64,000 bases of DNA from Candidatus Micrarchaeota archaeon (GCA_016188965.1 JACPGT010000013.1:116609-180608), one strand, 5' to 3'; counted from the stretch's first letter, positions 15,139 to 47,843 are shown. Program-made: numbers and translations. Notes: generated by a model not told the origin, from the sequence alone.

Positions 15139-15723
15139 TCAGGAAGTCGGCGTGGATGGGCCGCATTTCGCCGAGTAGAGGCTGTAGTCGGCGAGGGAAA
15201 TGTCGTCCTTGAGGGATTCGGGGATGGAGGCGACGAAGTACAGCGAGTAATCGCCGCAGGGCACGAGGCCTTGCACCATGTGGAGGGTTTCGCCGAATTC
15301 GTCAGGCGCGATGCGGTACTGCAAGCGGAGGATGCGGCGTCCGTCGACGGTCTGGACGGTTTCGGAATCAGGCGGGACGGCCAATTCGTCAAACGCGATG
15401 TCCTTGAGTTCTTCCAGCGTATACGTGCCGTTCACGACTTGGAAGACGAACGTCTCGGATAGGCCGGAGGGGCCGGGGGCGAAAAAAAGGGCGGTTTTGC
15501 CGTCTTCGACTTCCAACGGGTAGCCGACGGGGTAGCGGATGGAGTAGCCGCGCACGGCGTCGGTGAAAGCCAAGCTGTGCGACTCGTACTCGTCTGAATA
15601 AGAGACGGTCGTGGAAGCCGGTGAAAGCAACTCGGATGACCACGGGCCCAAGTCGGTGAAGAAGTAAGCGAACAAAACGGCGGCGGCGAACACCAGGGGT
15701 AGTGCGAGCGAGCGCAGGTTCAT
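15139..15723 (-). CDS. Small secreted or membrane-anchored protein, co-transcribed with the 3349-aa gene (4-nt overlap)
   Basis: Signal/anchor MNLRSLALPLVFAAAVLFAYFF. Confidence 0.55.
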   Translation of the reverse strand: MNLRSLALPLVFAAAVLFAYFFTDLGPWSSELLSPASTTVSYSDEYESHSLAFTDAVRGYSIRYPVGYPLEVEDGKTALFFAPGPSGLSETFVFQVVNGTYTLEELKDIAFDELAVPPDSETVQTVDGRRILRLQYRIAPDEFGETLHMVQGLVPCGDYSLYFVASIPESLKDDISLADYSLYSAKCGPSTPTS

Positions 15724-18700
15724 GGTTTGGATCCTCCGGTCTGGCCTTTGGACAGCAGGCGGGTCAAGGCCTGGTCCGCGGCGGACAGTTTGGCGGCGCC
15801 TTCGGCGTCTTTTCCTGCCCGGAATGCGGCAATGGCCTGGTTGGCAAGGGCGATGATGGAGCGGCGGTCGGCATCGGACAGGGAATTCTTGAAACCGTCG
15901 GTGTTGACCTGGTCGATGAGGGCCTGCGCCGCTTGGATCTGCACTTGGCGGGCGGTGACTTTCGGATTCTCGGCCGCGGGCTGGTATTCCTTGAACCCGA
16001 CGGCGGGCAACGGCGCATAGTCGATGGACGAGCCGGGCGGAAGTTTCAACAGCTGGAGGTCAGCGGGCAGCAGGGGGGCTTCCTCCGGCAGGAAGATGGA
16101 GCCGATGAAGCGAGGGTCGACCAGCGCGTCGTCGTTGAATCCGACGACGAGGCCGTACGCTTGGGATTGGCCGTCGGGCCACTGCAACAAGCGGAAGCAG
16201 GTGCCCGAATTGCCGCAGAGCTTCGAGACGCTGATGACGTTGCCGGACTCGCATAAGCCGGACGCGCCCTTGATGCAGATGCTTTCGGCCGACGGCTTTC
16301 CTTTTTCGGTGTGGACGGCGATGACGTGACTGCCGCTGGAGTCGGCCGACACTTGGATCTGCACGGGCCGAAAATCGGTGTTGAACAGGAAGGCCGAAAG
16401 AAATGCCGCGAATGCGCTGGCGCCGCGGGCGAGGCGGGCGCGTCCGTCGGCGTTCAGTAGCTTGCGGGCCGCGGCTTGCTGGTCGGCCAGCGTTGCTTCC
16501 GCATCCGCCAACAACGACGGCGTCAACTTGGCGGGTTTTCCGTCGCGGTCGTACAGCTGCAAGTCGGCCAGCGCTTTGGCTTTCTGGGCAGGAGTCTTGG
16601 CGCCTTTAAGGAATCCGGTGGAGTCAAGACGGTTGGCACCGACCTCGGTAACCGACGCCACGCCTCCGAATGACGCGCCGATTTCGACGCCTTGGCGTCG
16701 GAACGCGTCGGAAAGATCGGTGAAGCTCAGCGCACCGTCTTCGAATCGTTTGACAATCGCCGCGCCGGTTTCGCCTGCGGCATTCGGGAATTTTCCGGTT
16801 TTGACGATGTCGTTGATGGCCGGCGCCAAACCAGTGCCCACGTCGGCAGATTGGATGAGTTGCAGGTAGCGGCTTTCCTTCTTCAATTGATCCAATAGGA
16901 CCTTGTTCTGCGCCGCGGTGCGTTTGCCTAAAGCGGTAACCACGTCAGCATCCGGAGCCGTATCCGGCAGGCTCAATTTTGTGCGCAAGAGTACGCCTGC
17001 TTCTTTTTCCAACGGCTCGAGGGCTTCGCCCATGAGGTTGGTCCGCATCGCGTTGCTGGAATGGATTAGAAACTTGGCGCCGCTGCCTTTTTCACTCGTG
17101 ACAATCAGGAATTTGGATTTCTCACCCGTAAGCTGTTCCAGCAGATACTCCTGGTTGGCCGCGGTCTGGAAGTAGTTCAGTCGGTCCAATTCAGCCATGC
17201 ATCCGGCGGGATTGCCACTGCAGCGGGTGAGCACACCCGCTGGAATCTTGTTCGTGGACCCTTTCAGTACTTCAAAAGTCTGGGGGCCGAATTCCGGCGA
17301 CTGCATCAGGGCCGAAAAAGTGGAGCGAAGGCGCGCCGTCAACGCATCGCCTTGCAAGCTGGCGGGGCCGGCGAGGCCCAGGTTTTCGACGAAGAACTGG
17401 CGGGCGGCAACGGGGTTTTCCTTGATTAGGTTGGTGGAAACCATGGCGTAACCTTGCTTGACTTTCGCCGGGTCCTTGCTGCCGATGAGGGCCGCGGCTG
17501 CCTTCTTGTCATCCGGCGACAGAAGCGCCATGCCGTGGAACAACGCATTGCTGAACGCATTTTCAGGTTTTCCGTTTCCGGCGTCATAGAACGCGCGGAC
17601 GGCTTGTTCCGTGGTGCGGCGGCCTTGCGCGCCGAAGAAGCCTTGGGCGGCAAAGGAGCTGGTCGCGGCTTGTATGTTCTTGCGATACGACTCGCCGGGC
17701 ATGAGGTTGATCATGTAGGAGCGGGCCGCGACTCCGCCGCTGTAGACTTTGTTGGGGGATAAGCCTTGACGCAGGACTAAAGTGATGGGAACAACTGGCG
17801 GCGTGGCGGTGACGTCGGGGCCGGCCAGATTCTCCAGGTACGCGACCGTCGCGCCGCCGACGATGCTCTGCAGGGCGAACGAGCCGACGGCGGAGCGCAT
17901 GGCGGTTCCTGTCAGGGTCGAACCGAGGGTCGTCGTGGACGTGGCGCGGAGCAACTGGGCTTCGGCGGCCAGGGGCTTCCAACCGCCGAAGAACGGATTG
18001 GCCATTTCGACCATGCCGGCTAATACCGACGAAGTGCAGGCTTCCAGGGCGCGGCAGGACAAGACGCTTCGGCCTTGGAAATATTCGGCCACGGCGCCGG
18101 CGCCGCAGCCGGATGCGGCGGTGATGAGGCGGTAGTTGGTGATGAAGGAGCGGACTCCGACGAGAAAGGAGGATCCGCCGGTGGCCGTGACGGAGGCGGG
18201 GTTGGCCGCTGCGATGGCTTGGAGGAGCGCCAGGCCCGTGACGGTGAGGCCCAACTTCGTCAGGACGGGTCCTCCGGTGCGCCAGCAGAAGTTCGCGTTC
18301 TCGTACGGAATGGCAGGACAGGGCTTGTCTTCGAATCCGGGTTTGTTGCAGTACTTGATTTTCGCGTCTTTGGCGTTGGCGCCGAACGCGGAGGCGTACG
18401 TCATCTTGACGGCGAGGGCGTCCTTGTCGTTGGCGTCCGAGCCGTACGTACCTAGCACGCCTTGGCGGAGGCGGCCCACGCTTTCCAGCATGGCGGCGAC
18501 TTTGCCTTTGTCGCCGGAGTTGACGGCGGATTGCGCCAAGCCGCCGACGGCGTTGAGCGTGTTCCAGGAAAAGACTTGCTTGACGGCGCCGATGACGCTG
18601 CCGGTGCCCAACTGGTTGCCGGCGTACGACACGGGCGTGTCGGCCGTCAGAAGCGCCGCGTTGGCCAAGTTGACGGGGCATTCCTGGAGTTTTTCGACGT

Positions 18701-21700
18701 TCAGCTCGACTTGCATGTGGCCCATCCATTCGGACACTGAACTTCCTTGGATGCCGCAGGCGGGGTCAAGGCGGGCGGTGAGCCGGTAGATGCCGCAGCC
18801 GTTGAACAGGATGCGGCCGGAGCCGGAGGATTGGACGACGACTTGGTTGATTTCGGGGAAGAACTGCGTCTTGATTTGTGATTCCCACTGCAGGGACTGC
18901 GCTAAGGTGTCATCGCCGGACAAGGCGCCTTCCGTCAATTGCAGGACCGTGGATTTCTGGAATTGCTTTCCGCTGTCGAGGGACTGGCAGAACGCCGAAA
19001 GGCCGGAAAGTTCGGTGGCTTGGCCGTTGTTGTTGATGCGTTGGTTGACCAGTTCGCGGAACGTGCTGGCGAACGAATAGACGGCGCGTTCGGCCTGGCC
19101 GCTGGTGCAGAAGAATTTCTTGCAAGTGCGGAAGTCCAGAAGGTTCTGGTACGCCTGCGTGCGGGCTTGCGCTTCGGTCTTGCGTTCCGCTTCCTTCTGT
19201 GCTGCGGACTTTTCCGGTTCCGGCGGATTCGCCGCGGCGGCTTCGGCCGCGGAAGGCGTCAGAGCCGGCGGCGCGTTGGCGGACGGCGCGTCGGCAAAGG
19301 CAAGCGTTTCGTAGGACGCGAGGCCCATCTGGCCTTTCTGCTTGGGCGTCGCCGTGCGGGGGTCGAAGAAAGGCACGGCTTTTCCGATGGGCGAGTACGG
19401 ATAGAGCGAAGAGGAGGGTCCGGGATTCCAGACGTGGACGTTGATCGTCTTGGTGGGGTTGAACGAATCGCCCAGAAAGTCGATGATGTAAGGGCCTTGT
19501 TTTCCTTGGCTTCCGGGGTTGGACACGCAGGAAAGCAGCATCACGTCGGCCGGCTTGATTTCCGCCCCGGTCTGCAGCTGGAAGGTCGTCTTGGACCCGC
19601 CTTCCACGCGCGTGCACGTCATGAGTCCGGCGCCTGCGCCCGAGATGGACTTGACGCGGACGGGCTTTTCCTCGTTGTTGACGATGGCGAAGAACAATTC
19701 GTGCCCGGCGCTCTTGAAGTACAGCTTGTCCGCGCCGGTGCCGCCGGCGATGCCGGCCAGTTCCGCCGTGTCGTAGTTGACCGATACGGCGTTCAAGTCG
19801 ACGAACTGCTTTTGATCCTGGTAGGCCTGGCAGTCCGACTCCTTGGCGTCGAAAATCATCTTGACGGGCAGGCGGTGTTTTTCGGATTCGGAAACGGGCT
19901 CGCCGTTGACGTCGTTGAACTTGAACGCGTACCGGCCTTCCATGGACGGCGGCACTTTGCTTGCCGAAATGCATTTGTCTTTCCAAAGCACGTCCGGCGG
20001 TAGGCTGAATTCAAGGGTGAAGGCGCGGCAGTTGGACTGGCCTTCCACGGACGGCTCGACCGCGAGGCGTTGGCGCTTGCCGTAGGCGCTGGGTTCCGAG
20101 AAGTAGGCGCGTTCGGAAGGCACCTTGGAATCCGTCGAATCGGCTCCGGCGATGGCTTGGAAGATGGGCTTGTGTTCAGCGGACACGGCTTGGGCCGGCT
20201 CGGACGTGACGGCGTCCAGGATGATGCTCTGTTTGCCGCTGTTGAACAGGCAGATTTCCTTCTTCTGGGTGAACAATTCCGGATTCTTGTTGCTGAACGT
20301 GATTTCCAGCACGCCCATCTTGCCGTCCTTGTCCAAAGCGGCAAAAACGTCTTCCGCCGTGATGGACACGTCGAGGCGGCCGGATCCTTTCTCGCATACG
20401 GGCAGGAAGGAAAGCGACGAGCCCTTGGGCATCAGAAGGCCGGAACCGGAGTACTGGGGCGGCATGGCGGCCTGGATCTTCTGGCCGTTTGGATGAAGCG
20501 TGATTTTCTTGGCGCTGCCCAACTGCGTCAACGAGCCGGATTTCGAGCCGAACGAGATCGGCGTCAGGACGCCCAGGTCCACGTCGGCCTGGTTTTCCTT
20601 GAAACTGGCCAGGACGCGCTGGGGCATGGATACCACCGATTTTTCGGCGAAGGACACCTTGGCTTCCTTCAGCGTGTCGGCGACGTCCTTTCCGGCAGCG
20701 TCCTTGAGGCACGCCGTCAGCTCGACGGCATCCGACGTGCGGATGCTTTTTTCCTCGGCGTCCGACGCGTCGCCTACGGTGAACTCGCTGTCGGTCGAAA
20801 AAACAATTTTCTTGACGGCCGGGCTATGGAACACTTCGGCCGTCCCCGAGCCGCCGCTGACGGAGAATACGAGGCGGGCCGAATCGTCGCAGGCCGGCAG
20901 GATGGCTTCGTACCCTTTCGCCGTCTTCTGTACCGCCGTTCCGGTCGGCAGGGTGAAAGCCACGGAGTCCGGAGGCGCGTACGTGAAGGAACACTTGGCC
21001 ACTGAAGCCGGGTCGTAGGGAATGCGGGCGTGGGCGCCTTTGAGGTAAGTCAAGGCGTTGTCGCGGGCTACGCGCAGCACGTTCTGGCTTAGTTGTTTGG
21101 ACACGCTAAGCGTCCAGGATGCCTCGACCACGGCGTCGTCGGAAAGCTTCAGCGCGTTGCGTCCGTCCTGCGTCTTGAATGCCTTGGGCGAAGGGCCATG
21201 CACGCTCAAGGCGTAGGACAGGGGCATGCGCAGTTCGAACGCCTCCTCGATGGGCAAATCCTTGACGGCACTGACGCGCGCACGGGAGACGAACAAGGAC
21301 GTGCCGGACGGCAGCATGAGCGTGCCTTTCTGAACGTCTAAAGCGGCGCCGTCGCCGAAAGCTAGGCGTTCGCCTCCGGGCAACTGGATGGCCTTGAGGT
21401 TCTGCAAGTGGGCATCGGACTGCGGTTTGGAAAGGTAAGACAACGAATTGGCGGCGTTGGGCGTCTTGGGCTGCACATTCTTGCGTTCGACCGTGCCGGG
21501 CAACAAGTCGAACTGCGCGTCGGTAGGAAGCTTGATCTCGACGGAGTCCGGCGGCAGCAGGTTCTGCAACGCATCGTAGTTGAAGGGAATACGGCGGAAC
21601 GTGACCGGCTGCAAAGGCGGCACGCGCACGCCGGCGGCGGAGAGCCGGGCGTTGCCCTGCGCCTGCGGCGTTTGCACGCCGGGCGGCAGGATGATCTGCG

Positions 21701-25769: not shown

Positions 25770-25922
25770 GGATTCTTTGACCCTAGTCTACGAGGGCAAG
25801 GGGGAATAAAAAGGGATGGCGGCTGCGGGCTTGAAAACCACAGGACGAAACCCGACACGGAGGCAAACGAAGCAGTAAAAAGGCCGGAAACAGAAAAAAC
25901 GTAAGAAGAAAAGGCAAACCGT

Positions 25923-26204
25923 ATGGACGTAAAAACCATCAAACGTAAAATAGCATCCATCCTCCAGCGGCACCACGTGAGCCGCGCAGGTGTGTTCGGA
26001 TCCGCTGCCCGTGACGAAATGCGCAACGACAGCGACGTAGACATACTGGTCCGATTCAAAAAAAACATCGGCCTGCTGGAATTCATCGCTCTCAAACTAC
26101 AGCTTGAAAAGGCGTTGGGATGCAAAGTCGACCTCGTGGAATACGACTCGCTCAAGCCGGCCCTCCGGGAAAAAGTCCTGGCTCAAGAGGTCCGCCTCGC
26201 ATGA
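25923..26204 (+). CDS. Minimal nucleotidyltransferase (MNT) antitoxin of a HepT/MNT pair
   Basis: GVFGSAARDEMRNDSDVDILV nucleotidyltransferase motif. The stop overlaps the HepT start (ATGA). Confidence 0.8.
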   Translation: MDVKTIKRKIASILQRHHVSRAGVFGSAARDEMRNDSDVDILVRFKKNIGLLEFIALKLQLEKALGCKVDLVEYDSLKPALREKVLAQEVRLA

Positions 26205-39700: not shown

Positions 39701-42206
39701 CGGCCTCGACTTTTCCGGTGGCGGGGTTGTAGTGGATGTTCACGGACGTCGTAAAGGTGCCTGCCGTGGGCAGGACGGTGGGCGTGGCGGGTCCGGGCGT
39801 GGGCGTCGGCGTGCCCTGGAGCGTGCCGCTGATGCCGCGCACGAGGGGTATCTTGTATTCGTACGTGCGGGGGTAGCAAAGCGCGGCCTGCGCGTCGGGC
39901 GGATCACGGGCGGAAAGCAGGCCGCTGTTCGTCTGCGTGGCGAAGTAGAGGGACAATGGCTGGTTGGAGCGGGCGTCGGGTTTGATTTGGAGCAGGAAGG
40001 TGGCGATGCGGACGGCGGGTTGGTTGAAGCGGAGTTCGACCCATTTGTAGCCGTCGGAGTTGGACACCAAATGGGAAGCAAGGTCCTGGCAGTTGGCCGA
40101 AGGGTTGTACGTAGAGCTGCGCAGGACGGCATCCGCGCCGGTGTATTCGGCGATGTAGGCGTCGTCGGACTCCATGTCCGCTTTGCTTCCGACGCGCAGG
40201 TAGATGCTCTGGTTCGTGGCCGACGCCGCGGGCGTGGCGTTCAGTTCGACGACGTATTGCTGGCCGGTCTTAAGCTGGCTGACGCGCTGACCGGACAAAT
40301 CGCGGATCTGTACGAGCCCGACTTGGGCGCCTTGCGTCGCGCTTTGGGGGATGAGTACCGCGGGCAATACGCGGTTTTCGCCGTCCAAAAGCACGAGGTC
40401 GGCCACGAAGGGGACATGTTCGGCTTTGGTCAGGATGACGTGCGTCTGGACCTGGGCGGGAACGTCGGAAAAGCGGGAGGAGCCGTTGGTGTCGGTGGTG
40501 GCGTCGGCAAAGGCCTGGCCTTGGCTGTCCACGTGTACGGAGACGGACGCAAGTGCCGCATTGTCCAGAGCGGAGACGGCGCTGACGCGCAAGGCGGCGC
40601 GGTGGATGGTCAACTGCAGCCGCAGACGGCTTCCGCCTTGTTCGATGCTGACGCGGGCCGTCGCGTTCTGTCCGGCATGCTCGGCCAGCACGTCGTAGGC
40701 CGAGAGGGAAAGCTCGCTAAAGACGGCCGAGCCGGAAAAGTCCGTGGATTGGGCAGGGGAGGCCAAGCGGCCGTTCTGGAAGAGCGTGACGCGGGCACCG
40801 GAGAGCGCGGCGCCGTACTCGTCCTGTACGGCGACGGTGAGGGCGGCCGAGTTGAAGGCCGTGGCCTTTTCCAAGGTGAAGACGTTGTCTTTGCCGGCCT
40901 GCAAGTCGGCCGTCTTGGACAGGTAGCCGTCGGAGTCAAGATAGACGTAGTACGCGCCGGGCTGCACCTGCAGTTCCCAACGCTCGCCTTCATACGTGGC
41001 CAGTTCGATCAAGGGAGCTTTGATGATGCGCGCAGAGAACGGAAGCGGGTTGCCTTGCACGTCCTGGGCGCGGATGACGGTGTCCAATGCGTTGCCACCA
41101 CCGGAGCCGCCGGACGCGTCCAGCGTGATGAGGATTTGGGTGTCTTCCGTCACGGTCTGGGGGCGCGACGAGCCGTCGTAGAGGGGAAAGTTGGCGACTT
41201 GCGCGGTGACGAACACGCTGGAGCCCATTTCGGCGGAAAACGCGGCTGCACCGGCAACGGTGTCGCTTTCACCCAAGAGCGTGCCGCCCGCGCCATAGAG
41301 ACGGACGTGGCCTTCCAAAGGCCCAGCGCTGGAAGACAGTTGGATGGTGACTGCGCCGAACGTGGCCAGCTGGGTCGAATTGCCGTCGCCGCCGCCCGCG
41401 CCGTTGCCGCCGGAACCGGAGCCGTCGCCCGAACCCCCCGAGCCGACGTCACCGCCGCCGAAGAAGGACCCGCTTAAGGACTTCAGAAAGACCGTGGTCT
41501 GTCCGCCGTCGCGCACGGCCAGCGTCTCGGTCTTGTAACCTTCCTTGCTGACGCGGATGTTCGTCAAAGCCGCTTTGGGCAAAACCGCGCGCCCTTGTTC
41601 GTCCGTGGCCTTCGTTCCGCTGCCGTCCTCCGACACGTACAACACTTGGGCCGCCGTCACGGGTTGTTCCGACCCGGCATCCAGCACCACGACGGTCAGC
41701 ACGTTGTAGTCGACGGAGCCGGGATCCGGCAGGTCCTCCGTGCCCGGCGGCGTGGACTTCAGATCGGCTTTAAGCGTGCTTTGCCCCGCGCTGGCCTTGA
41801 GCGTCAACGTCTTGAAGCCGGACTTGCTGACGCGCACCGTCAAGGCGGAGCCAGGCAGGCCGTCGAACGTGATTTTTCCTGCCTTCGTCTTGCCTTGGGC
41901 GATGATGGAGTCTTGGAAGAGGATTTGCACGTCGGCGCCGTCCACGGCCTGCCCCGCGGACTGGACCGTGATGGAAAGACTACGCGTGCCGCCGTCGGCC
42001 TGCGACGTCAACAGCACAAGCGCGCCGCCGACAAGGGCCACGAAGAGGAGGATAAAGACGGGAAGCGACGGGATGCCGCGGGCCTCGATGGGCGTGACGA
42101 AGAAATCCATGAAGGGCACGCCGGCGGTCTGTAGGCCTTCGGCAAAGCCGTAGTACGCCTCCTCGATGGAATCGTAGACGGCCTTGAGGGAATCGAAAAT
42201 ACCCAT
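36792..42206 (-). CDS. Giant (1804 aa) membrane-anchored surface protein with beta-sandwich repeats and an Ala/Gln-rich coiled-coil-like C-terminal region
   Basis: N-terminus MGIFDSLKAVYDSIEEAYYGFAEGLQTAGVPFMDFFVTPIEARGIPSLPVFILLFVALVGGALVLL. TATA-like TTTTTATCC at 42228-42236 (reverse), ~25 nt upstream. Confidence 0.8.
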   Translation of the reverse strand: MGIFDSLKAVYDSIEEAYYGFAEGLQTAGVPFMDFFVTPIEARGIPSLPVFILLFVALVGGALVLLTSQADGGTRSLSITVQSAGQAVDGADVQILFQDSIIAQGKTKAGKITFDGLPGSALTVRVSKSGFKTLTLKASAGQSTLKADLKSTPPGTEDLPDPGSVDYNVLTVVVLDAGSEQPVTAAQVLYVSEDGSGTKATDEQGRAVLPKAALTNIRVSKEGYKTETLAVRDGGQTTVFLKSLSGSFFGGGDVGSGGSGDGSGSGGNGAGGGDGNSTQLATFGAVTIQLSSSAGPLEGHVRLYGAGGTLLGESDTVAGAAAFSAEMGSSVFVTAQVANFPLYDGSSRPQTVTEDTQILITLDASGGSGGGNALDTVIRAQDVQGNPLPFSARIIKAPLIELATYEGERWELQVQPGAYYVYLDSDGYLSKTADLQAGKDNVFTLEKATAFNSAALTVAVQDEYGAALSGARVTLFQNGRLASPAQSTDFSGSAVFSELSLSAYDVLAEHAGQNATARVSIEQGGSRLRLQLTIHRAALRVSAVSALDNAALASVSVHVDSQGQAFADATTDTNGSSRFSDVPAQVQTHVILTKAEHVPFVADLVLLDGENRVLPAVLIPQSATQGAQVGLVQIRDLSGQRVSQLKTGQQYVVELNATPAASATNQSIYLRVGSKADMESDDAYIAEYTGADAVLRSSTYNPSANCQDLASHLVSNSDGYKWVELRFNQPAVRIATFLLQIKPDARSNQPLSLYFATQTNSGLLSARDPPDAQAALCYPRTYEYKIPLVRGISGTLQGTPTPTPGPATPTVLPTAGTFTTSVNIHYNPATGKVEADATEITLQVDPIYPRDSVPLRITDEPSCAIETRIEATHSGCYQLGRTSLAFEAKDYRPDCPASVKANEVILPQGDANLILAAICAPNSQIKLPIRINAQSATSINTAPATLDEGEKTAKLLYVINQKQAGTRTLTPLGASGSIAVAAQGAAAFSWSGPGTLTLLDGDAQVGQWTYNNAPAYFDGIGTMGPRVETASDYLSCAQGWCSGQAALQALRHFQTAAKNTAVATMFRRGQDTALPSAQPTPVPTAIPSITPTPSASASPSATASVTPTPSATARATAFITPTPTPSATSTPTPTPSASADSTPVTLHVNDVKTAANGNQIKLTEILQASGTTYAGFDIRSPAGTVLTAISKQQGEFYEGNGLRFQVTAITWSDSESQRSVQVQLLGSWTALPAASADSDGVAASFENRPDSVAPSFGSSLSFATTPPITREPFVFSTVMQLTEGADKAFDILGVQRVGAGCGGLPGVYHVTASSLDGNTFTYSAQAMKLEQSFDGRGQGLLLCGFLHAAGNQVVTGKNPALPSQNQASEEHTKPDTKLAIFTLAPVYKQQCEALGNQVVTLQKKIAAEKADLKQAGTALQAAVTQLQSGVNVAIAAEAASKGAKSSSVTNSKVPAYTCTEGVCVPCAKMGCAPGYDGAIAPNGQAVTADGAARLNLFNAKTALSEAIAQTNLPEETSTTALPSPAASSPGPATAAAQKLEAEFTIDIGAVETSRQSALKALQAANPPATDAGSAAAVAAAAESSGLASAAQTKTAAALALAKTAAQAVTQTRLAYDKDVQQLAATKQKCNAMRPPLFEIPFGLWPQQSQFACPTSDRYEAEAAKLEAEKLATQKALDVASEYGADFGADLDKQIADAKALAAKGCVALCKPKPACVESFPSGRQFTQVIHLGLSSDCQPFSKTAAQDLAKSMVANTVMKSLGPYAMMASFATGGSCNGAQGYFSKDNLGGPGSLSGGPSGGYIG

Positions 42207-42538: not shown

Positions 42539-43204
42539 CTATGCCGTGTATTCTTCCTCGAACTTGACGGACGTGACGCCATCCAGCACGGAAAACGCCT
42601 GTTCGATGAAGCGGAATTTCTTCAGCACCACGTCGGCCGCCATGTCCCGCTTGAGGGCCAGTTTGACCGACACGGAACCGTCCTTGAACGACGCCTCCGC
42701 CGACAACAACTTCCGCCCCAAGGCTTGGGCCTTGTCCTCGGCGGACCGGTACACCTTCTTCACCGTGAAATCGTACTGCACCGTCTTGCCGGCCAAGTCG
42801 GAATTGAAGTCGACGCGCACGCGGCCGCCATCCACGCTCTGCACTTTCGCCGGCCGGCCATCCATCTCCAACACCAAGCCGGGATAAGGATCGATCTTCT
42901 GTTCGCGGAACGCCGCCAGCGGCACCAAACGCACCAAATCCGGATTGCGGTTGCCGAAAGCCTTCTCCGGCGGCAGCTTGACGCTCTGCGCTTTTCCTTC
43001 CTCGGCACCCTGCAACGCATCATCCAAGCCTGGAATGACTTGGCCCTTGCCCACGGCGACCAGAACGGGGCCGTACGCGGCTTTCTCGTTGAAGATGCCG
43101 GCGGTCTTCGCCGCATCCGCCGACGTCGTGTCGAACAATTGGCCCTCGGCCTTCGCCGAGTACTCCAATTCGACCAAATCATTCTTCGAAACGTTCAAAG
43201 CCAT
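42539..43204 (-). CDS. Long-type archaeal FKBP peptidyl-prolyl cis-trans isomerase (FKBP + IF domain + C-terminal domain)
   Basis: MALNVSKNDLVELEYSAKAEGQLFDTTSA...GKGQVIPGLDDALQGAEEGK...VDFNSDLAGKTVQYDFTV. Start ATG at 43204 inside the longer listed ORF. Confidence 0.85.
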   Translation of the reverse strand: MALNVSKNDLVELEYSAKAEGQLFDTTSADAAKTAGIFNEKAAYGPVLVAVGKGQVIPGLDDALQGAEEGKAQSVKLPPEKAFGNRNPDLVRLVPLAAFREQKIDPYPGLVLEMDGRPAKVQSVDGGRVRVDFNSDLAGKTVQYDFTVKKVYRSAEDKAQALGRKLLSAEASFKDGSVSVKLALKRDMAADVVLKKFRFIEQAFSVLDGVTSVKFEEEYTA

Positions 43205-43227: not shown

Positions 43228-43962
43228 TCATTGGGAAGCGTTCGAACCGGACGCGACGGGCGAAGCAGACGCCGAAGCGTTGCCGGCCGACGCGTTGACC
43301 GAAGGCTCCGGCGACGCGGACGCACCCGCCGCAGGCGACGCCGTGCCCCCCCACGCGGACAGGACGTCCGATTCGAGCTGTTGGGCCGTGACGGACACGA
43401 ACTGGTTGTCCTGCACCACGACGGTGACGGACAGCTCCGCCTCGTCGCCCACGTCCAGCGAAGGCGAGACGAACGCCTGAAAACCCGCAAAGCCCTGATT
43501 CGAGAAATACGCGTCCAACTGGCGCGCCGACACGTCCTGCGAACCGGTCGACGTGTTCAACTCCAACTGCGCCGGAATCAAGTCCATGCCAGCCGAGCGG
43601 AACAGCGGCGCCTGGCAGGCGTCCGCCACACGCGATTCGACGAAGTCCAACGAAGCGTTCTTTTCGAACTGGATGGCCAACACGTCCGGCGAGGCGAACA
43701 AGGCATTGCGCACGCCCGGATAGGTCCGCAGTTCCTCATCCAACTTCGTGGCCGCACCGCACACCGCCAAACCGGCGTAACCCAGCTGAAGCACCTTGCC
43801 GCGCACCTGCGCGGTTCCCGAGAACGACAACGGCGTCGGACTCGGCCCGCCGTCGGCATCCGACGAACGCGCGGTGGAAAGGCCCAAAAAGACCGTCTCA
43901 CCCACGAAGACGACGATCAACAACAACGCGCCGTACTTGAGCAACTGATCGCGAGAAACCAT
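43228..43962 (-). CDS. Membrane-anchored hypothetical protein with a Ser/Ala/Asn-rich C-terminal tail
   Basis: MVSRDQLLKYGALLLIVVFVGETVFLGL anchor. C-terminal ASPAAGASASPEPSVNASAGNASASASP carries several N-x-S sequons. Confidence 0.5.
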   Translation of the reverse strand: MVSRDQLLKYGALLLIVVFVGETVFLGLSTARSSDADGGPSPTPLSFSGTAQVRGKVLQLGYAGLAVCGAATKLDEELRTYPGVRNALFASPDVLAIQFEKNASLDFVESRVADACQAPLFRSAGMDLIPAQLELNTSTGSQDVSARQLDAYFSNQGFAGFQAFVSPSLDVGDEAELSVTVVVQDNQFVSVTAQQLESDVLSAWGGTASPAAGASASPEPSVNASAGNASASASPVASGSNASQ

Positions 43963-44177: not shown

Positions 44178-44846
44178 TCAATTGGGACAGGCATCCGCCA
44201 ACGTCAGCATGACGCTGGGACCCAAGGTCCGGCGGTACTGCGCACTGCCATTGATATGCGTATAATCCAACAACGTCAATTCCACGTCGTAACGCGCATT
44301 GAAGCACTTCATCGTCAACGCGTACTTGTAATACGGACCCGTCTCGCCTTCGGTAAGCGACACGCGTTTTTCCGTGCCATTGGCGCCAACCACCGTGCGA
44401 ACCGTGTCGAACGCGCCGAACGCGTTTCCTTTGGACGGCCGGATGAAAATAGTGTACTGGTACGCCGCCTGGGTGTCATCCACCACCCACACGTTCTCCG
44501 CACTCTCATACGCCTTGCGCGAATCGTTGAACGCCGCATTCACCGCCACGTTGAACTCCGCCGCGAACTTTGCCAACGTAGGCACGCCGGCAGGCGCGGC
44601 GGTCGACACAGGCTTAGCCGAAGGCAACGTCGTCGGCTTGGCCGACGCGATGTACGGGATGCGGGCCGTCGGACTGGCTGACGCTGCAGCCGAAGGCGAT
44701 GCGGCCGCCACCGTCACGGACGGACTAGGCGACGCCGCGACCGAAGGCAACGCCGTAGGCGACGCCAACGGCGCGGAAGGCTGCGTACAACCGGCCAACA
44801 ATAAGCCGAACACTACCAAACCGTAAACCAGATTCTTGAAATCCAT
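44178..44846 (-). CDS. Lipoprotein (lipobox LLLAGC) with a Pro/Ser/Ala-rich linker and a globular C-terminal domain
   Basis: MDFKNLVYGLVVFGLLLAGCTQPSAPLASPTALPSVAASPSPS... Confidence 0.6.
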   Translation of the reverse strand: MDFKNLVYGLVVFGLLLAGCTQPSAPLASPTALPSVAASPSPSVTVAAASPSAAASASPTARIPYIASAKPTTLPSAKPVSTAAPAGVPTLAKFAAEFNVAVNAAFNDSRKAYESAENVWVVDDTQAAYQYTIFIRPSKGNAFGAFDTVRTVVGANGTEKRVSLTEGETGPYYKYALTMKCFNARYDVELTLLDYTHINGSAQYRRTLGPSVMLTLADACPN

Positions 44847-44919: not shown

Positions 44920-45000
44920 AGCTGGCGCTGAAAAAAACAAACGGGAAAGAAAAAGGGAAAAAAGAAAAAAGGGAAAAGGGGTCTTTCGACCCCCTTTTTC
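44920..45000 (-). terminator. Hairpin (GGGGTCGAAAGACCCC on the reverse strand) followed by a long pyrimidine/T-rich tract, immediately 3' of the S-layer-like gene
   Basis: Plus strand 44978-44993 ggggtctttcgacccc preceded by an A/G tract at 44920-44977. Confidence 0.55.
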
Positions 45001-45005
45001 AGAGC

Positions 45006-47843
45006 TTAGCGGCCCTGCAGGCTGTCGGCATTCTGCGACAACCAGGCGATCAGGCTGTTGGCAGCCGACGTCGTGTCCGACGCCGAGTAGCCGTAGACCA
45101 GGATCTTGTCACCCTGGACCTTGACCACCGGTTCATCCGAAGCCGAGGCAGCCGGAGCACCCGAGAGCGCCGAAGCGGCGACCGAGTTGACCAGCGGACC
45201 ACCGACGACGATCAGCGGCTGAGCACCAGCCGAGGCATCCGTCACGACCAGCGGAGACGCGGCCGTGTCCAACGGCGTGACCACGAAGGCCGTCTCCTGC
45301 GAAGGCTTCAAGCCGTCCGCGCCGGAAACTGAACCACCCGTCGAGCCACTCGACGCGCCCGCAGCCGTGATCGTCTTGACCACGACTTTGTAGCCGTTGT
45401 TGTCCAAAGCGGTTTCGCCCGCCTTGAAGTCCGTCGTCGCCTTGTTGGCGCCCGTGTCCGTTCCTGCCGTCGACAGCGTCGTCAAAGCATGAGCCAGCGT
45501 CGTCGCGTACTGAATTTCCGCGTTCGTCAAGCTCAAGGCCGCCAACTTGCTGCCACGAGGCGAGATGTAGCCCACTTCGTACAGCGTCGGCGTCGTAGCC
45601 GTCGTCGTGTACGTAGCCGCACCCAACGCCGTCAGCGGGAAGTAACCACCCGTGGCCGTGCCGCTTTCCAGCGACAAGTGAGGCGTGCTCGAGCTCGCCT
45701 GGCTTACACCCAGCGAGAAAGCGCCCTGCACGGAGTCTTCCGTCGTGACGTACTCGGGAACGAACAAACCACGGCGGATCGTCGTCATGTCACCCGCTTC
45801 GAAGCCAGCCGGCGTGATACGCAGGTAGACGAAGTTCGGTCCGTAGTTGTACTTCACGAAGTTGCTGCCCACGTTGTAGGACACACCCGTCGCGCCCTGG
45901 CCCGGCGTAATCGTGCCGTTCCAGTTCTCGAAGTTGATGCGCACCGTACCGGCGGCCAGACCCATCAGGGTGCCGTCAACCGTGGCGTTGCCGTTCGCGT
46001 TCGTCAGGACGATTCCCGAAGGCGTCAAGCGCGCGGCCGAAGCCGTCACGTTCGAAATCGCGGCTGCCGGGAACGTGGCTGCCGTAGCGAAGCCCGTGTC
46101 CGTACCGAAGGTCCAGACGCCCGCCATCATCGTCGAGTTGGCGGCCGTGTTGTTCGTGAACCGGGCACCCGTGCCGAAGTCGTAGACTTTCGCGCCCGTA
46201 CCCGTGCTGATGCGCACGTTGGTGGCGGACGTCGTGTAGGCCGCACCGGCCAGCACCATGGTGGTGCTGTAGTACGGTACGAAGTTCGACGTCGTCGGGT
46301 CACGGAAGAAGACCGTACCCGCAGAGCCGTTGCCAGCCGCCGTGGCGTCCGAGATGATGTAGAATTCACGGGCGTTGGTCGGGGCCGAAGCGGCGTCCGA
46401 GAAGTCGAACGGCGAGGTCAGCGTCGACTGTGCCAAGATGTAGGACAAATCGACGGTCGTCGTGTCCGTGGCGCTGGTCTGGAAGCTCTGCGAACCCGTC
46501 GCGAACGTCAGCTTGTCGTAGGAGACGTCGGCCAGGCCGTTGTACGTGAGCTTCATCAGGGCAGGCTTGTCCAGGAAGTTCAGCGAGTCGCCCTTGTTCA
46601 GGTCCGACGCGACCGAGCGCGTCAGTTGGACGCGGGCCAGCGAGTGACCGTAGGACGTTCCGCCTCCGACGAGGTTGACGCGCCAGTTCGTGTTGTCCGT
46701 GCTGACCGAGCTGGATTGCTGCAGGGCCAACTTGTCGGAAAAGACGCTGACTTGCGCGTAGCTGGTCTGACCCAGACCGGCGAAGACCTGGAAGACGCGG
46801 ATGACGATACCATTCTTGTTGTATTCGCCATCTTGCTGCAGCGTCGTCGTGTCGATCACGTTGCCGTTGGCATCGCTGACTTCGAACGAAACGGACAGCA
46901 ACTGCGCCGTACCGGTCGGGACGGCCGAGATGTCCTTGAGCTTGGCGGAAATGCCGTTCGGGGACGTGACAGTGTCACCGATCTGCATGAACTCCTTGTA
47001 GGAGACTTCCTTACCCAGCGTCAGAACTGACGTGGCAGGCAGGGCCGTGTCCGAGTTGAAGTTGTCCATGCCGACGATAATCCAGTCCGCGCCCAAAAGC
47101 TTGACCTTGACGCGGTGCTTGGTCGTCTTGTAGGTGTCCGAGCAGGTCGAGTCGTCCGGCGTGAATTCCGTACAAACCTGGATGGGGTTCGTAAAGATGG
47201 ATTCGTACGCGACTTGCGGGTTCTTGGCCTTGACCGTCTTGGTCGAGGCGTCGTACTGCGTCTTGGAGTAGACGTAGTAGCGTTCCTCCTGCGTGTACGA
47301 CTTGGACACTTGCGAGTCCGTAATCGCGCCCTTGAAGGCCAAAGCCGATTCCGAGGACGTGATCTTGCGGCCAGCGCTGGCGAACGGAGACGTTCCGCCC
47401 AGGATGGTGTTGGTGCCCGTCAGGTCGTTGACGCGGTCATCCGTCGTGTTCGTGTCCAGGAAGCCTTCGACGTAGGTCTTCATCTGGTAGGCCACGTTCG
47501 GGTTGACGCCCGGCGTCGTGATTTCCAAGGAGACTTTGTCATCCGTGGAGGTCGTGCTGGCCGTACCGCCCGAGCAGGACAGCAGGTCAGCGCCCAGGAC
47601 GGTGATGTCCTGCGACGTGTAGGCCATGTTGCCGATCATAGCGGCAATGTTGGCTGCGGCGACGGCGTCCGAGGGTTGGGCCTGGGAGCCGACGACGATC
47701 TTCAGGTTCGGAGCACCGTTCGAGAAAAACGGGAAGTTGCTCAGACCGCTGGAGTCCACTTGGACTGCGCCAGCAAAAGCGGCGCCCAGCAATGCAGCGC
47801 CGGCAGCAGCCGTCGCGATTTTCTTGACGTTCAAACTTTTCAC
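45006..47843 (-). CDS. S-layer-like major surface glycoprotein (945 aa)
   Basis: GTG start preceded by SD GAGGTGG (47848-47854, reverse). Signal peptide MKSLNVKKIATAAAGAALLGAAFAGAV. Thr/Ser/Ala/Gly-rich, very low Cys, dozens of N-x-S/T sequons. A strong terminator follows. A TATA-like TTTAAAAACC lies about 150 nt upstream. Confidence 0.6.
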   Translation of the reverse strand: MKSLNVKKIATAAAGAALLGAAFAGAVQVDSSGLSNFPFFSNGAPNLKIVVGSQAQPSDAVAAANIAAMIGNMAYTSQDITVLGADLLSCSGGTASTTSTDDKVSLEITTPGVNPNVAYQMKTYVEGFLDTNTTDDRVNDLTGTNTILGGTSPFASAGRKITSSESALAFKGAITDSQVSKSYTQEERYYVYSKTQYDASTKTVKAKNPQVAYESIFTNPIQVCTEFTPDDSTCSDTYKTTKHRVKVKLLGADWIIVGMDNFNSDTALPATSVLTLGKEVSYKEFMQIGDTVTSPNGISAKLKDISAVPTGTAQLLSVSFEVSDANGNVIDTTTLQQDGEYNKNGIVIRVFQVFAGLGQTSYAQVSVFSDKLALQQSSSVSTDNTNWRVNLVGGGTSYGHSLARVQLTRSVASDLNKGDSLNFLDKPALMKLTYNGLADVSYDKLTFATGSQSFQTSATDTTTVDLSYILAQSTLTSPFDFSDAASAPTNAREFYIISDATAAGNGSAGTVFFRDPTTSNFVPYYSTTMVLAGAAYTTSATNVRISTGTGAKVYDFGTGARFTNNTAANSTMMAGVWTFGTDTGFATAATFPAAAISNVTASAARLTPSGIVLTNANGNATVDGTLMGLAAGTVRINFENWNGTITPGQGATGVSYNVGSNFVKYNYGPNFVYLRITPAGFEAGDMTTIRRGLFVPEYVTTEDSVQGAFSLGVSQASSSTPHLSLESGTATGGYFPLTALGAATYTTTATTPTLYEVGYISPRGSKLAALSLTNAEIQYATTLAHALTTLSTAGTDTGANKATTDFKAGETALDNNGYKVVVKTITAAGASSGSTGGSVSGADGLKPSQETAFVVTPLDTAASPLVVTDASAGAQPLIVVGGPLVNSVAASALSGAPAASASDEPVVKVQGDKILVYGYSASDTTSAANSLIAWLSQNADSLQGR

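What the first reader, a model, noticed from the sequence alone, without database searches (positions are those of the whole stretch)
15139..47843. About 33-kb co-oriented surface-structure supercluster
Gene order on the minus strand, from high to low coordinate:
- S-layer-like protein (945 aa, SD-led, strong terminator)
- lipoprotein
- membrane-anchored protein
- long-type FKBP
- three giant signal-anchored beta-sandwich-repeat proteins (1804, ~2025 and 3349 aa)
- secreted Cys-rich 985-aa protein
- small secreted protein

Only a YdjM-like membrane hydrolase and a HepT/MNT cassette interrupt it, both on the plus strand.

Giant surface proteins are hallmarks of episymbiotic/DPANN-type archaea and of cell-cell attachment systems. 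The embedded FKBP chaperone and the membrane hydrolase suggest a dedicated assembly/maturation module. As an ensemble this looks like an undescribed attachment or envelope apparatus.
Basis: partly seen in the sequence, partly recalled or inferred. Interest (0 to 1): 0.75.

Follow-up and report, generated by a model that had tools for sequence, protein, structure and literature searches.

The report
Micrarchaeal S-layer and giant-protein gene neighbourhood
This stretch of a tiny symbiotic archaeon (Micrarchaeota) encodes its S-layer coat protein next to three huge membrane-anchored surface proteins. It is several separately conserved gene modules side by side, not one machine, and the giants share an N-terminal anchor absent from Pfam and NCBIfam; one giant keeps a membrane-hydrolase gene as neighbour.

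Summary
All listed genes are at the stated coordinates on the minus strand, and the giant ORFs are intact in independent assemblies. The organism is a Candidatus Micrarchaeota (DPANN) archaeon.

The "single apparatus" reading is only partly supported. The region has about seven transcription units and at least four modules with different evolutionary ranges:
1. **S-layer module.** S-layer protein, TM-anchored protein and FKBP26-type chaperone are kept together in 11 of 52 Micrarchaeota species loci.
2. **Giant 2 and YdjM.** Giant 2 (2025 aa) is divergently paired with a YdjM-like membrane hydrolase. The pair recurs in relatives whose giants are only 28-30% identical, in unrelated gene contexts.
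3. **Giant 3.** Giant 3 (3349 aa) is followed by a small secreted protein.
4. **Giant 1.** Giant 1 (1804 aa) is inverted in one relative.

The toxin-antitoxin cassettes are variable insertions.

All the giants carry a ~70-aa N-terminal motif followed by a TM helix (degenerate in giant 3), with no match in Pfam or NCBIfam. It defines a family of at least 539 cluster representatives, mostly 1200-3700 aa, named members being Micrarchaeota or Iainarchaeum.

Only beta-sandwich folds were recognised; no enzyme domain was found. Surface fibres for attachment or envelope scaffolding are the likely function, but this is inferred.

The parts
45006..47843 (-). S-layer protein, 945 aa, N-terminal signal peptide, SD-led GTG start
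   Evidence: PF05124 S_layer_C at 67.8 bits against a cut-off of 23.9. TIGR01564 at 64.1 bits against 25. 101 homologues, those with names called S-layer protein of Micrarchaeota.
44974..44997 (-). Hairpin (10-bp stem) followed by a T-run, directly after the S-layer stop codon; terminator-like
44178..44846 (-). Lipobox (LLAGC) secreted protein, 222 aa, Ala/Pro/Ser-rich linker
   Evidence: Sequence. No Pfam hit. Orthologues sit in the same position in relatives.
43228..43962 (-). N-terminally TM-anchored protein, 244 aa from M13. Member of a family encoded between the S-layer gene and the FKBP gene in several Micrarchaeota.
   Evidence: No Pfam hit.
42539..43204 (-). Long-type FKBP (FKBP26-like), 221 aa, no signal peptide, so cytoplasmic
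   Evidence: FKBP_C at 40.6 bits, FKBP26_IF at 54 bits, FKBP26_C at 21.1 bits, which is below its cut-off of 27.
36792..42206 (-). Giant 1, 1804 aa: N-anchor plus TM, CarboxypepD_reg domains, PT-rich linker, variable Ala/Gln-rich helical stretch (about residues 1400-1600), conserved Cys-containing C-terminus
   Evidence: Own TATA-like box (TTTTTATC) and oligo-T tail.
41997..42206 (-). N-terminal anchor module of giant 1: acidic ~45 aa with the YY, KGIP and PIExRGIPSxPV motifs, then a TM helix
   Evidence: No Pfam hit at E<=1.
36232..36660 (+). YdjM/DUF457-like membrane protein, 142 aa, transcribed divergently from giant 2 across a 211-bp spacer
   Evidence: PF04307 at 40.5 bits against a cut-off of 29. 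Conserved H / PDxDH / HRGxTH / SHxxxD motifs. Conserved adjacency to giant genes.
29943..36020 (-). Giant 2, 2025 aa: N-anchor plus TM, beta-sandwich array, conserved Cys-patterned region with Ig-like domains and helices, Cys-rich tail. The most widely conserved member of the family.
   Evidence: TATA box TTTATATAA upstream.
35811..36020 (-). N-terminal anchor module of giant 2
26975..29932 (-). Secreted Cys-rich protein, 985 aa, starting 10 bp after the giant 2 stop, so probably co-transcribed. Fast-evolving: 37% identity in a relative whose giant 2 is 66% identical.
   Evidence: No Pfam, NCBIfam, PDB or PHROGs hit.
25923..26560 (+). MNT (25923-26204) and HepT (26201-26560) toxin-antitoxin cassette, a secondary insertion
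   Evidence: NTP_transf_2 at 55 bits and HepT at 107 bits. Absent from the same spacer in L094.
25787..25809 (.). Copy 1 of a 23-nt direct repeat bracketing the TA cassette; part of the giant 3 promoter region
26923..26945 (.). Copy 2 of the 23-nt direct repeat
15720..25769 (-). Giant 3, 3349 aa: degenerate N-anchor plus TM, CarboxypepD_reg array (about residues 55-600), long region with no family hit, helical and hydrophobic C-terminal ~1000 aa
   Evidence: Homologue with 26% identity over 2546 aa in GCA_038884755.1, directly after a giant-2 homologue.
15139..15723 (-). Small secreted protein, 194 aa, overlapping the giant 3 stop by 4 nt, so co-transcribed
   Evidence: A weak homologue lies after a fragment resembling the giant 3 C-terminus in L103.

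Best explanation
The region is a chromosomal cell-envelope neighbourhood of a Candidatus Micrarchaeota archaeon. It is built from separately conserved and separately transcribed modules, not from one operon or machine.

**Module A: S-layer.** It comprises the S-layer protein, a lipobox protein, an N-terminally TM-anchored protein and a cytoplasmic FKBP26-type chaperone. I infer that the TM-anchored protein is a candidate membrane stalk or tether for the S-layer. I infer that the FKBP is co-expressed to handle large amounts of envelope precursors.

**Modules B to D: three paralogous giants.** Each begins with a conserved, acidic ~45-aa N-terminal segment and one TM helix. This motif has no match in Pfam or NCBIfam. 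I infer a Sec-dependent, N-in/C-out signal-anchor topology. The N-terminus would stay in or at the membrane. A chain of CarboxypepD_reg and Ig-like beta-sandwich domains would form a stalk long enough to cross the space under the S-layer. Cys-rich or helical distal regions would be exposed at the surface, as attachment fibres or envelope scaffolds.

**Giant 2 and YdjM.** Giant 2 is conserved over almost its whole length across Micrarchaeota. It keeps a divergently transcribed YdjM-like, metal-ligand-bearing membrane protein as neighbour. I infer that YdjM is a dedicated partner acting at or near the giant's membrane anchor, in maturation, release or turnover.

**Toxin-antitoxin cassettes.** These are hitch-hiking insertions.

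**Shown versus inferred.** Gene content, family membership, conservation patterns and transcription-unit signals are shown. Topology, surface exposure, adhesion, and the roles of YdjM and FKBP are inferred.
For: **Identity and gene content**
- Organism and proteins. Pfam and NCBIfam assignments.

**Separate transcription units**
- Each unit has a TATA-like box about 25-40 nt upstream and an oligo-T or hairpin signal downstream.
- Gene pairs separated by 24 bp or less, or overlapping: 256/FKBP, giant 2/985 and giant 3/194.

**Conserved gene order**
- The order is reproduced in relatives with 58-85% S-layer identity.
- Flanking GatCAB and CTP synthase genes are syntenic, so this is chromosome, not an island.

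**Modules have different ranges**
- The S-layer, TM-protein and FKBP triad occurs in 11 of 52 species loci. Giants lie near the S-layer gene in only 3 of those 52.
- Giant 1 is inverted in L010.

**N-anchor family**
- A degenerate DNA pattern gave 24 of 24 true hits, each about 40-110 codons into an ORF of up to more than 3000 aa.
- A profile search of 1.84 billion representatives found 539 at E<=1e-3 and 174 at E<=1e-10. In all but one of the 150 listed hits the match lies within the first ~110 residues.
- 93 of the 149 listed representatives whose sequences were retrieved are at least 1000 aa long.
- 12 of the 20 looked up carry a source name: ten Micrarchaeota or Micrarchaeia, one Iainarchaeum and one plain 'archaeon'.

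**Conservation of the giants**
- Giant 2 is 25-40% identical over about 1700 aa to many representatives.
- Giant 3 has a homologue with 26% identity over 2546 aa, placed after a giant-2 homologue.

**YdjM adjacency**
- All 14 significant YdjM hits in 1.66 Mb of fetched loci lie within 2 kb upstream of a giant's start, divergently oriented.
- This includes L115 and L117, whose other neighbours are unrelated to those in the window.
- The putative metal-ligand motifs are conserved.

**Fold**
- The AF2 model of giant 2 residues 1250-2025 has confident tandem beta-sandwiches and helices. These match Ig, ASH, cadherin, fimbrial-adhesin and S-layer domains only generically.
Against: - There is no direct evidence of surface exposure or adhesion.
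- N-glycosylation sequons are about half the number expected from composition in the S-layer protein and the giants, and 0 against 6.7 expected in the 985-aa protein.
- The N-terminal segment is acidic, which does not fit the positive-inside rule, so the inferred N-in topology is uncertain.
- YdjM is absent next to giant-2-type genes in several lineages: L116, the Norongarragalina type (L003, L100, L108) and L091.
- The loci were selected through S-layer or giant genes, so YdjM copies elsewhere in these genomes were not surveyed.
- The FKBP may be the cell's general chaperone, with its position owed to shared high expression or inherited synteny.
- Most of each giant (more than 60% of residues) has no recognisable domain.
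- The first structure model failed (mean pLDDT 38.7).
Confidence: 0.62

Rival explanations
1. One reading: the whole 33 kb is one dedicated attachment or envelope apparatus. The FKBP and the YdjM hydrolase would be its assembly and maturation factors, co-regulated and acting together.
For: - Eleven sizeable genes are co-oriented on one strand.
- The same order is kept in several relatives with 58-85% S-layer identity.
- All products except the FKBP are secreted or membrane-anchored.
Against: - There are separate promoters and terminators, including a strong hairpin after the S-layer gene.
- Giant 1 is inverted in L010.
- The modules occur apart from one another in other Micrarchaeota.
- The FKBP follows the S-layer gene, not the giants.
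- Toxin-antitoxin cassettes insert between units without apparent harm.
Confidence: 0.12
2. The giants are core structural components of the envelope rather than host adhesins. Examples would be spacers or tethers that set the membrane-to-S-layer distance, or scaffolds for division. The link to symbiosis would then be incidental.
For: - Giant 2 is conserved along about 1700 aa across the phylum, with invariant cysteines. That is unlike fast-evolving host-recognition proteins.
- Its homologues sit among housekeeping genes such as DNA ligase, RtcB and FtsZ.
- In this lineage it lies near the S-layer gene.
- How the Micrarchaeota S-layer is anchored is an open question (bioRxiv 10.1101/2021.04.28.441871).
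Against: - Giant 1 has a hypervariable distal stretch, and the 985-aa partner evolves fast. That fits exposed, diversifying surfaces.
- At 1800-3349 aa, the giants are far longer than needed to span the sub-S-layer space, judged from domain counts; this is my own estimate, not a computed result.
Confidence: 0.3
3. The cluster is a horizontally acquired genomic island or mobile element carrying surface genes. The suggestion comes from its higher G+C and its toxin-antitoxin genes.
For: - G+C is 0.60-0.65 over much of 10-26 and 30-48 kb (several 2-kb windows at 36-38 and 42-44 kb are 0.58-0.59), against 0.50-0.59 in the flanks.
- HepT/MNT lies inside the region; AbiEii and AAA_14 genes are at 2-4 kb.
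Against: - The flanking GatCAB and CTP-synthase synteny and the internal order are kept in relatives down to 58% S-layer identity.
- There is no tRNA gene, and no integrase or phage-family hit among the ORFs I tested.
- The G+C rise tracks the Ala/Gly/Ser/Thr-rich composition of the proteins.
- The TA cassette is a 1.1-kb local insertion with a 23-nt duplication.
Confidence: 0.04

Closest known systems
Micrarchaeota S-layer protein SLP_Mh of 'Ca. Micrarchaeum harzensis' A_DKE (bioRxiv 10.1101/2021.04.28.441871); Pfam PF05124 / TIGR01564 S-layer family
   Same: - The 945-aa protein passes both family thresholds.
- Its size of about 100 kDa and its N-terminal signal or TM segment resemble SLP_Mh, and it has about 100 Micrarchaeota homologues.
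   Different: - I made no direct comparison with the A_DKE sequence.
- That paper does not describe the gene neighbourhood and leaves the anchoring unresolved.
- Here a TM-anchored protein family is encoded next to the S-layer gene in several species.
Giant membrane-anchored surface proteins of Nanohaloarchaeota (SPEARE; SVXNc_0300, BNXNv_0298; PMC10266531)
   Same: - Both are DPANN giants with an N-terminal signal or TM segment, arrays of Ig-like domains and coiled-coil or helical distal parts.
- Both are proposed to mediate host interaction.
   Different: - The window's giants are 1804-3349 aa, against 8880-9409 aa.
- No VirB4/TraG-like ATPase domain or convincing Walker A motif is present.
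- No neighbouring secretion ATPase was seen.
- Their N-terminal anchor motif recurs only in proteins named as Micrarchaeota or Iainarchaeum among those looked up.
- I found no sequence homology to the Nanohaloarchaeota giants.
Bacterial RTX adhesin LapA with its neighbouring protease LapG (own knowledge; RTX adhesins also in bioRxiv 10.1101/2025.09.30.679566)
   Same: This is a working analogy only. In both cases a giant beta-sandwich-repeat surface protein is held by an N-terminal retention element, and a dedicated hydrolase gene lies next to it.
   Different: - There are no RTX repeats and no type 1 secretion signal or genes.
- YdjM is an integral membrane protein unrelated to the LapG cysteine protease.
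- Cleavage has not been shown.
Extended signal peptides of very large bacterial surface proteins (ESPR of autotransporters and TPS proteins; YSIRK-G/S motif) (own knowledge)
   Same: In both, a conserved extra N-terminal segment precedes the hydrophobic core and is found specifically on very large exported proteins.
   Different: - Pfam gives no hit on the N-anchor at E<=1, so it matches no Pfam model, including any for ESPR or YSIRK.
- The motif itself is different (YY, KGIP, PIExxGIPSxPV).
- The domain of life is Archaea, and whether the segment is cleaved is unknown.
Sulfolobales SlaA/SlaB S-layer pair (outer lattice protein plus membrane stalk)
   Same: The S-layer gene is followed by a gene for a TM-anchored protein in 11 of 52 Micrarchaeota loci. 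The A_DKE paper suggests that a stalk protein may exist.
   Different: - There is no homology to SlaB.
- The anchor here is N-terminal, whereas in SlaB it is C-terminal (own knowledge).
- The function has not been tested.

Membership tests
Archaeal S-layer protein family (PF05124 / TIGR01564) | Score above the curated cut-off of the family models | tested here: met
   PF05124 at 67.8 bits against 23.9. TIGR01564 at 64.1 bits against 25.
Archaeal S-layer protein family (PF05124 / TIGR01564) | N-terminal export signal; strong expression signals | tested here: met
   Hydrophobic segment at residues 9-27. SD-like GAGGTGG and a hairpin terminator. Expression level itself was not measured.
Archaeal S-layer protein family (PF05124 / TIGR01564) | Forms the 2-D surface lattice | not testable with these tools
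   Needs EM or proteomics of the organism.
FKBP26-type long FKBP (PPIase plus IF chaperone insert plus C-terminal domain) | FKBP_C and FKBP26_IF domains above cut-off | tested here: met
   40.6 bits against 21.1, and 54.0 bits against 27.
FKBP26-type long FKBP (PPIase plus IF chaperone insert plus C-terminal domain) | FKBP26 C-terminal domain | tested here: inconclusive
   21.1 bits, below the cut-off of 27, at E=3.5e-4.
YdjM / DUF457 membrane proteins (PF04307) | Pfam score above cut-off, with conserved His/Asp motifs in a polytopic membrane protein | tested here: met
   40.5 bits against 29. The H, PDxDH, HRGxTH and SHxxxD motifs are conserved in seven giant-adjacent homologues.
YdjM / DUF457 membrane proteins (PF04307) | Hydrolase activity and substrate | not testable with these tools
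   To my knowledge the family has no established substrate.
HepT/MNT type VII toxin-antitoxin pair | Adjacent MNT nucleotidyltransferase and HepT RNase genes | tested here: met
   NTP_transf_2 at 55.1 bits and HepT at 106.9 bits; the two genes overlap by 4 nt.
Nanohaloarchaeal SPEARE-type giants | VirB4/TraG-like ATPase domain inside the giant, and a VirB4-like ATPase gene downstream (PMC10266531) | tested here: not met
   No such Pfam hit. No Walker A motif except one isolated chance-like match. The downstream genes are a Cys-rich protein and a small secreted protein.
RTX / LapA-type adhesins | RTX nonapeptide repeats, C-terminal T1SS signal, LapG-type protease neighbour | tested here: not met
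   No RTX or haemolysin-type Ca-binding Pfam hits. The neighbour is YdjM, not a LapG-type protease.
Known extended signal peptides (ESPR, YSIRK) | Match to the Pfam models for these motifs | tested here: not met
   No Pfam family at E<=1 for four N-anchor sequences.
N-anchored giant proteins of Micrarchaeota (family proposed here) | The ~70-aa module (YY...KGIP...F[VI]xPIExxG[IVM]PSxPV plus TM) within the first ~100 residues | tested here: met
   Giants 1 and 2 match at E=6e-34 and 4e-27. Giant 3 has a shortened version; its L094 orthologue matches at E=5e-4.
N-anchored giant proteins of Micrarchaeota (family proposed here) | A beta-sandwich (CarboxypepD_reg / Ig-like) array follows the anchor; length above ~1200 aa | tested here: met

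The most novel reading that the evidence does not exclude
The conserved N-terminal module of the giants would be a recognition tag for a dedicated membrane enzyme, the divergently encoded YdjM/DUF457 protein. YdjM would mature, tether or release the giant fibre. This would be an N-terminal protein-sorting or release system of Micrarchaeota, analogous in logic to sortase, archaeosortase or LapG systems. It would also give the DUF457 family its first substrate class.
Probability: 0.2. Interest if true: 0.75.

Novelty: new variant of a known kind. Interest (0 to 1): 0.55.

Why it matters
Micrarchaeota are host-dependent DPANN archaea, and the molecules that build their envelope and touch the host are almost unknown. 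This work yields three concrete targets for proteomics, cryo-ET and binding studies in the cultivated Micrarchaeota co-cultures:
- a phylum-wide family of giant anchored proteins that can be recognised by a simple N-terminal motif;
- a recurrent giant/YdjM gene pair, which offers a testable substrate hypothesis for an uncharacterised membrane-protein family;
- a candidate membrane stalk encoded next to the S-layer gene, which bears on the open question of how the Micrarchaeota S-layer is anchored.

It also shows that the striking 33-kb 'supercluster' is a lineage-specific juxtaposition. Conclusions should therefore be drawn per module.

Tried and rejected
**Searches that found nothing**
- Homologue search with the whole 3349-aa giant timed out. 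Its C-terminal 1200 aa found nothing, not even itself, probably because low-complexity words swamped the prefilter.
- PDB sequence searches of the three giants and the 985-aa protein gave nothing below E=0.03.
- NCBIfam gave nothing for the giants. PHROGs gave nothing for the 985-aa protein or the ORFs at 5-15 kb.
- Self-BLAST found no internal repeats in any giant.

**Structure**
- The AF2 model of giant 1 residues 620-1400, with a 3-sequence alignment, had a mean pLDDT of 38.7 and was not searched.
- The AF2 model of giant 2 residues 1250-2025, with a 10-sequence alignment, had a mean pLDDT of 56.7 with confident beta-sandwich and helical parts.
- The afdb50 library was unavailable.

**Other checks**
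- Pattern extraction from the N-anchor alignment by the search for related loci failed twice. A hand-made degenerate DNA pattern replaced it.
- Sequon counting as a test of extracellular location was uninformative: sequons are depleted rather than enriched.
- The literature hit for 'DUF457' was a false match to DUF4579.
- Papers on Micrarchaeota genomics and S-layers do not mention these giants.
- The genomic-island reading was rejected on synteny grounds.

Full report

Yes.
- S-layer protein: 45006-47843, 945 aa.
- Lipobox protein: 44178-44846, signal ending in LLAGC.
- TM-anchored protein: 43228-43998. Orthologues place the real start at M13, nt 43962.
- FKBP: 42539-43204, 221 aa.
- Giant 1: 36792-42206, 1804 aa.
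- Giant 2: 29943-36020, 2025 aa.
- Cys-rich protein: 26975-29932, 985 aa, 30 Cys.
- Giant 3: 15720-25769, 3349 aa.
- Small secreted protein: 15139-15723, 194 aa.

The only correction concerns order. The 985-aa gene lies between giants 2 and 3.

On the plus strand are YdjM (36232-36660) and an MNT/HepT pair (25923-26560). Each exported protein has a single N-terminal hydrophobic segment. The S-layer gene has a GAGGTGG Shine-Dalgarno-like element. It is followed by a 10-bp hairpin and a T-run.

The giant ORFs are not assembly artefacts. Logan assemblies of four sequencing runs carry them. One 14.7-kb stretch differs from the window at 3 positions and holds all but the first 16 codons of the 3349-aa ORF uninterrupted; the assembly's gene call on that contig is the full 3349 aa.

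**2. What organism, and what are the parts?**

The 1804-aa and 945-aa proteins are 100% identical to NCBI proteins of a Candidatus Micrarchaeota archaeon, on a 197-kb contig.

| Protein | Result |
|---|---|
| S-layer protein | Passes PF05124 and TIGR01564 |
| FKBP | FKBP_C and the FKBP26 IF insert pass; the C-terminal domain is below threshold; no signal peptide, so cytoplasmic |
| Giants | Pfam hits only in the N-terminal third: CarboxypepD_reg, Big_1, Ig-like |
| Rest of the giants, 985-aa, 222-aa, 244-aa and 194-aa proteins | No hit in Pfam or PHROGs (985 aa only); no NCBIfam or PDB sequence hit below E=0.03 for the giants and the 985-aa protein |

No Walker A or HExxH motif suggests an enzyme.

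**3. One operon or several units?**

Several. TATA-like boxes lie about 25-40 nt upstream of the 222-aa gene, giant 1, giant 2 (TTTATATAA), giant 3 and the two genes below 15 kb. Oligo-T tracts or a hairpin follow the S-layer, 222-aa, FKBP, giant 1, 985-aa and 194-aa genes.

Only three pairs are spaced tightly enough to be co-transcribed:
- 244-aa gene and FKBP: about 24 bp apart.
- Giant 2 and the 985-aa gene: 10 bp apart.
- Giant 3 and the 194-aa gene: 4-nt overlap.

**4. Is the ensemble conserved?**

I collected about 100 S-layer homologues and fetched loci in four ways:
- 80 loci from GTDB species representatives;
- contexts of individual homologues;
- 24 metagenome loci found with a DNA pattern for the giants' N-terminus;
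- contexts from independent assemblies of the window's own organism.

In relatives with 70-85% S-layer identity, overlapping loci together reproduce the whole order. It runs S-layer, 222, 244, FKBP, giant 1, YdjM on the opposite strand, giant 2, the 985-aa homologue, then giant 3 (L002, L008, L011, L092, L094, L102, L105, L112). The flanking GatCAB and CTP-synthase genes are syntenic too. The region is therefore ordinary chromosome, not an island.

Further out, the ensemble dissolves:
- In GCA_016207165.1 (58% S-layer identity), giant 1 is inverted.
- Of 52 species loci with at least 5 kb downstream of the S-layer gene, 11 keep the TM-protein and FKBP pair. Only 3 have a giant within 10 kb.
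- Giant-2 homologues with 28-30% identity lie among DNA ligase, RtcB or FtsZ genes, with no S-layer gene within the 9-10 kb fetched on either side.

The toxin-antitoxin genes vary between relatives:
- The window has HepT/MNT between the 985-aa gene and giant 3.
- Relative L094 has a 120-bp spacer at that position.
- In the window, a 23-nt piece of the giant 3 promoter region is duplicated on both sides of the cassette.
- L002 and L008 instead carry VapBC between giant 1 and YdjM, and L010 carries a PIN gene after the FKBP.

**5. An N-terminal anchor with no Pfam or NCBIfam match**

Giants 1 and 2 and their relatives start with an acidic segment of about 45 aa. It carries conserved YY, KGIP and F[VI]xPIExxG[IVM]PSxPV motifs and is followed by a TM helix. 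Giant 3 has a shortened version.

- A degenerate DNA pattern for the motif hit 24 metagenome contigs. All 24 matches lie about 40-110 codons into an ORF of up to more than 3000 aa.
- A profile of four sequences, searched against 1.84 billion cluster representatives, found 539 proteins at E<=1e-3 and 174 at E<=1e-10.
- In all but one of the 150 listed hits the match lies within the first ~110 residues.
- 93 of the 149 listed representatives whose sequences were retrieved are at least 1000 aa long; the shortest are probably contig-end fragments.
- 12 of the 20 looked up carry a source name: ten Micrarchaeota or Micrarchaeia, one Candidatus Iainarchaeum and one plain 'archaeon'.
- Pfam has no match, even at E<=1.
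- The papers I could search on Micrarchaeota do not mention these proteins.

**6. The giants are three different conserved families**

- **Giant 2** is the canonical one. It is 25-40% identical over about 1700 residues to many representatives, with invariant cysteines in the distal half. The Norongarragalina protein first found through giant 1 is in fact of this type.
- **Giant 3** has a homologue of 3037 aa with 26% identity over 2546 aa in GCA_038884755.1. It lies directly after a giant-2 homologue and before a 180-aa ORF, so the giant 2, giant 3, small-protein tandem is old.
- **Giant 1** is narrower in range. It is conserved except for an Ala/Gln-rich helical stretch at about residues 1400-1600. 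That stretch is about 20% identical even between close relatives and is deleted in one.

**7. YdjM is a partner, not an interruption**

In 1.66 Mb of fetched loci there are 14 significant YdjM hits. All lie within 2 kb upstream of a giant's start and are divergently oriented. In L010 and its duplicate L017, YdjM also lies upstream of the inverted giant 1 on the same strand.

The hits cover several lineages:
- the window's clade;
- L115 (giant 30% identical; a rhomboid protease gene is also next door);
- L117/L118 (giant 28% identical; housekeeping flanks);
- the L097/L113 and L101 lineages.

Upstream zones of giants make up roughly 5% of the DNA surveyed. Five independent lineages all falling in that zone is unlikely by chance, roughly 3e-7 by my estimate.

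The H, PDxDH, HRGxTH and SHxxxD motifs are conserved.

The pairing is not universal. L116, the Norongarragalina type, L091 and others lack YdjM nearby. I also did not survey YdjM genes elsewhere in these genomes.

**8. Structure**

- The model of giant 1 residues 620-1400, from 3 sequences, failed with a mean pLDDT of 38.7.
- The model of giant 2 residues 1250-2025, from 10 sequences, reached pLDDT 75-90 over about 380 residues of tandem beta-sandwiches plus helices.
- The recognisable parts therefore look like adhesion or scaffold modules. No catalytic fold was seen.

**9. Most likely mechanism**

What is shown:
- gene content and family membership;
- conservation patterns;
- transcription-unit signals.

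What is inferred:
- The giants are exported with the N-terminal module as a signal-anchor.
- Their chains of beta-sandwich domains form stalks that cross the space under the S-layer.
- Cys-rich or helical distal parts are exposed at the surface.
- YdjM acts at the anchor of giant 2.
- The 244-aa TM protein may tether the S-layer, an open question in bioRxiv 10.1101/2021.04.28.441871.
- The FKBP supports folding or export competence of abundant envelope precursors.

Whether the giants serve host attachment or envelope architecture cannot be decided here. The phylum-wide conservation of giant 2 favours a core structural role. The variable stretch of giant 1 and the fast-evolving 985-aa protein fit exposed, diversifying surfaces.

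**10. Comparison with known systems**

- **Nanohaloarchaeal giants (SPEARE; PMC10266531).** This is the closest concept. Those proteins contain a VirB4/TraG-like ATPase domain and have ATPase neighbours; the proteins here do not.
- **LapA/LapG and ESPR/YSIRK.** These are analogies in logic only. Their defining features were tested and not met.

**11. Verdict**

This is a real and largely unannotated envelope gene neighbourhood of a DPANN archaeon. It is best treated as juxtaposed modules. The parts worth following up are the N-anchored giant family and its recurrent YdjM partner. Novelty: a new variant of a known kind (DPANN giant surface proteins). Interest: moderate.

Noticed in passing
window 10357-13140 (-) and 13204-14937 (-): Two paralogous ORFs of 927 and 577 aa, 30% identical over about 370 aa, extend the minus-strand run below the finding's lower bound. 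They have no signal peptide, TM segment or cysteine, and no Pfam or PHROGs hit. The same order is seen in the independent Logan contigs L004 and L007.
   Followed up: partly
window 25787-25809 and 26923-26945: A 23-nt direct repeat (TCTACGAGGG...) brackets the HepT/MNT cassette. Relative L094 has a single copy in a 120-bp spacer. The cassette therefore seems to have been inserted into the giant 3 promoter region with a short duplication.
   Followed up: yes
window 15720-47843 (secreted proteins): N-x-S/T sequons occur at about half the number expected from composition in the S-layer protein and the giants. In the 985-aa Cys-rich protein there are 0 against 6.7 expected. This is odd for archaeal surface proteins, which are usually N-glycosylated.
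   Followed up: no
window 37400-38000 (giant 1 residues ~1400-1600): An Ala/Gln-rich helical stretch is only about 20% identical between relatives that are 60-80% identical elsewhere in the protein. It is deleted in the L010 orthologue.
   Followed up: partly
window 1950-4292 (-): An AAA_14/DUF4143 ATPase gene lies next to an AbiEii-type nucleotidyltransferase toxin gene, a defence or TA-like pair outside the finding.
   Followed up: no
L115 6632-8113: A rhomboid intramembrane protease gene lies directly beside the YdjM gene, which is divergent from a giant-2 homologue. This is a second membrane hydrolase next to the giant's anchor end.
   Followed up: no
L003 10001-18223 (Ca. Norongarragalina meridionalis): The giant-2-type gene is followed on the same strand by two T2SSF (pilus platform) genes and a gene with a class III signal peptide (pilin-like). 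This hints at a link between a giant and a type IV pilus-like system in that lineage.
   Followed up: no
L045-L087 (many Micrarchaeota S-layer loci): In the more distant Micrarchaeota, the S-layer gene is followed by a same-strand ORF of about 680-740 aa and one of about 150-230 aa, instead of the 222/244/FKBP set. This may be an alternative S-layer accessory module.
   Followed up: no
window 26975-27500 (C-terminus of the 985-aa protein) and 29943-30150 (C-terminus of giant 2): Short Cys-rich knots, with patterns such as C-x-G-x-C...C...CC, recur at the C-termini of the 985-aa protein, of giant 2 and of distant giant-2 homologues such as P0107 and P0190.
   Followed up: no
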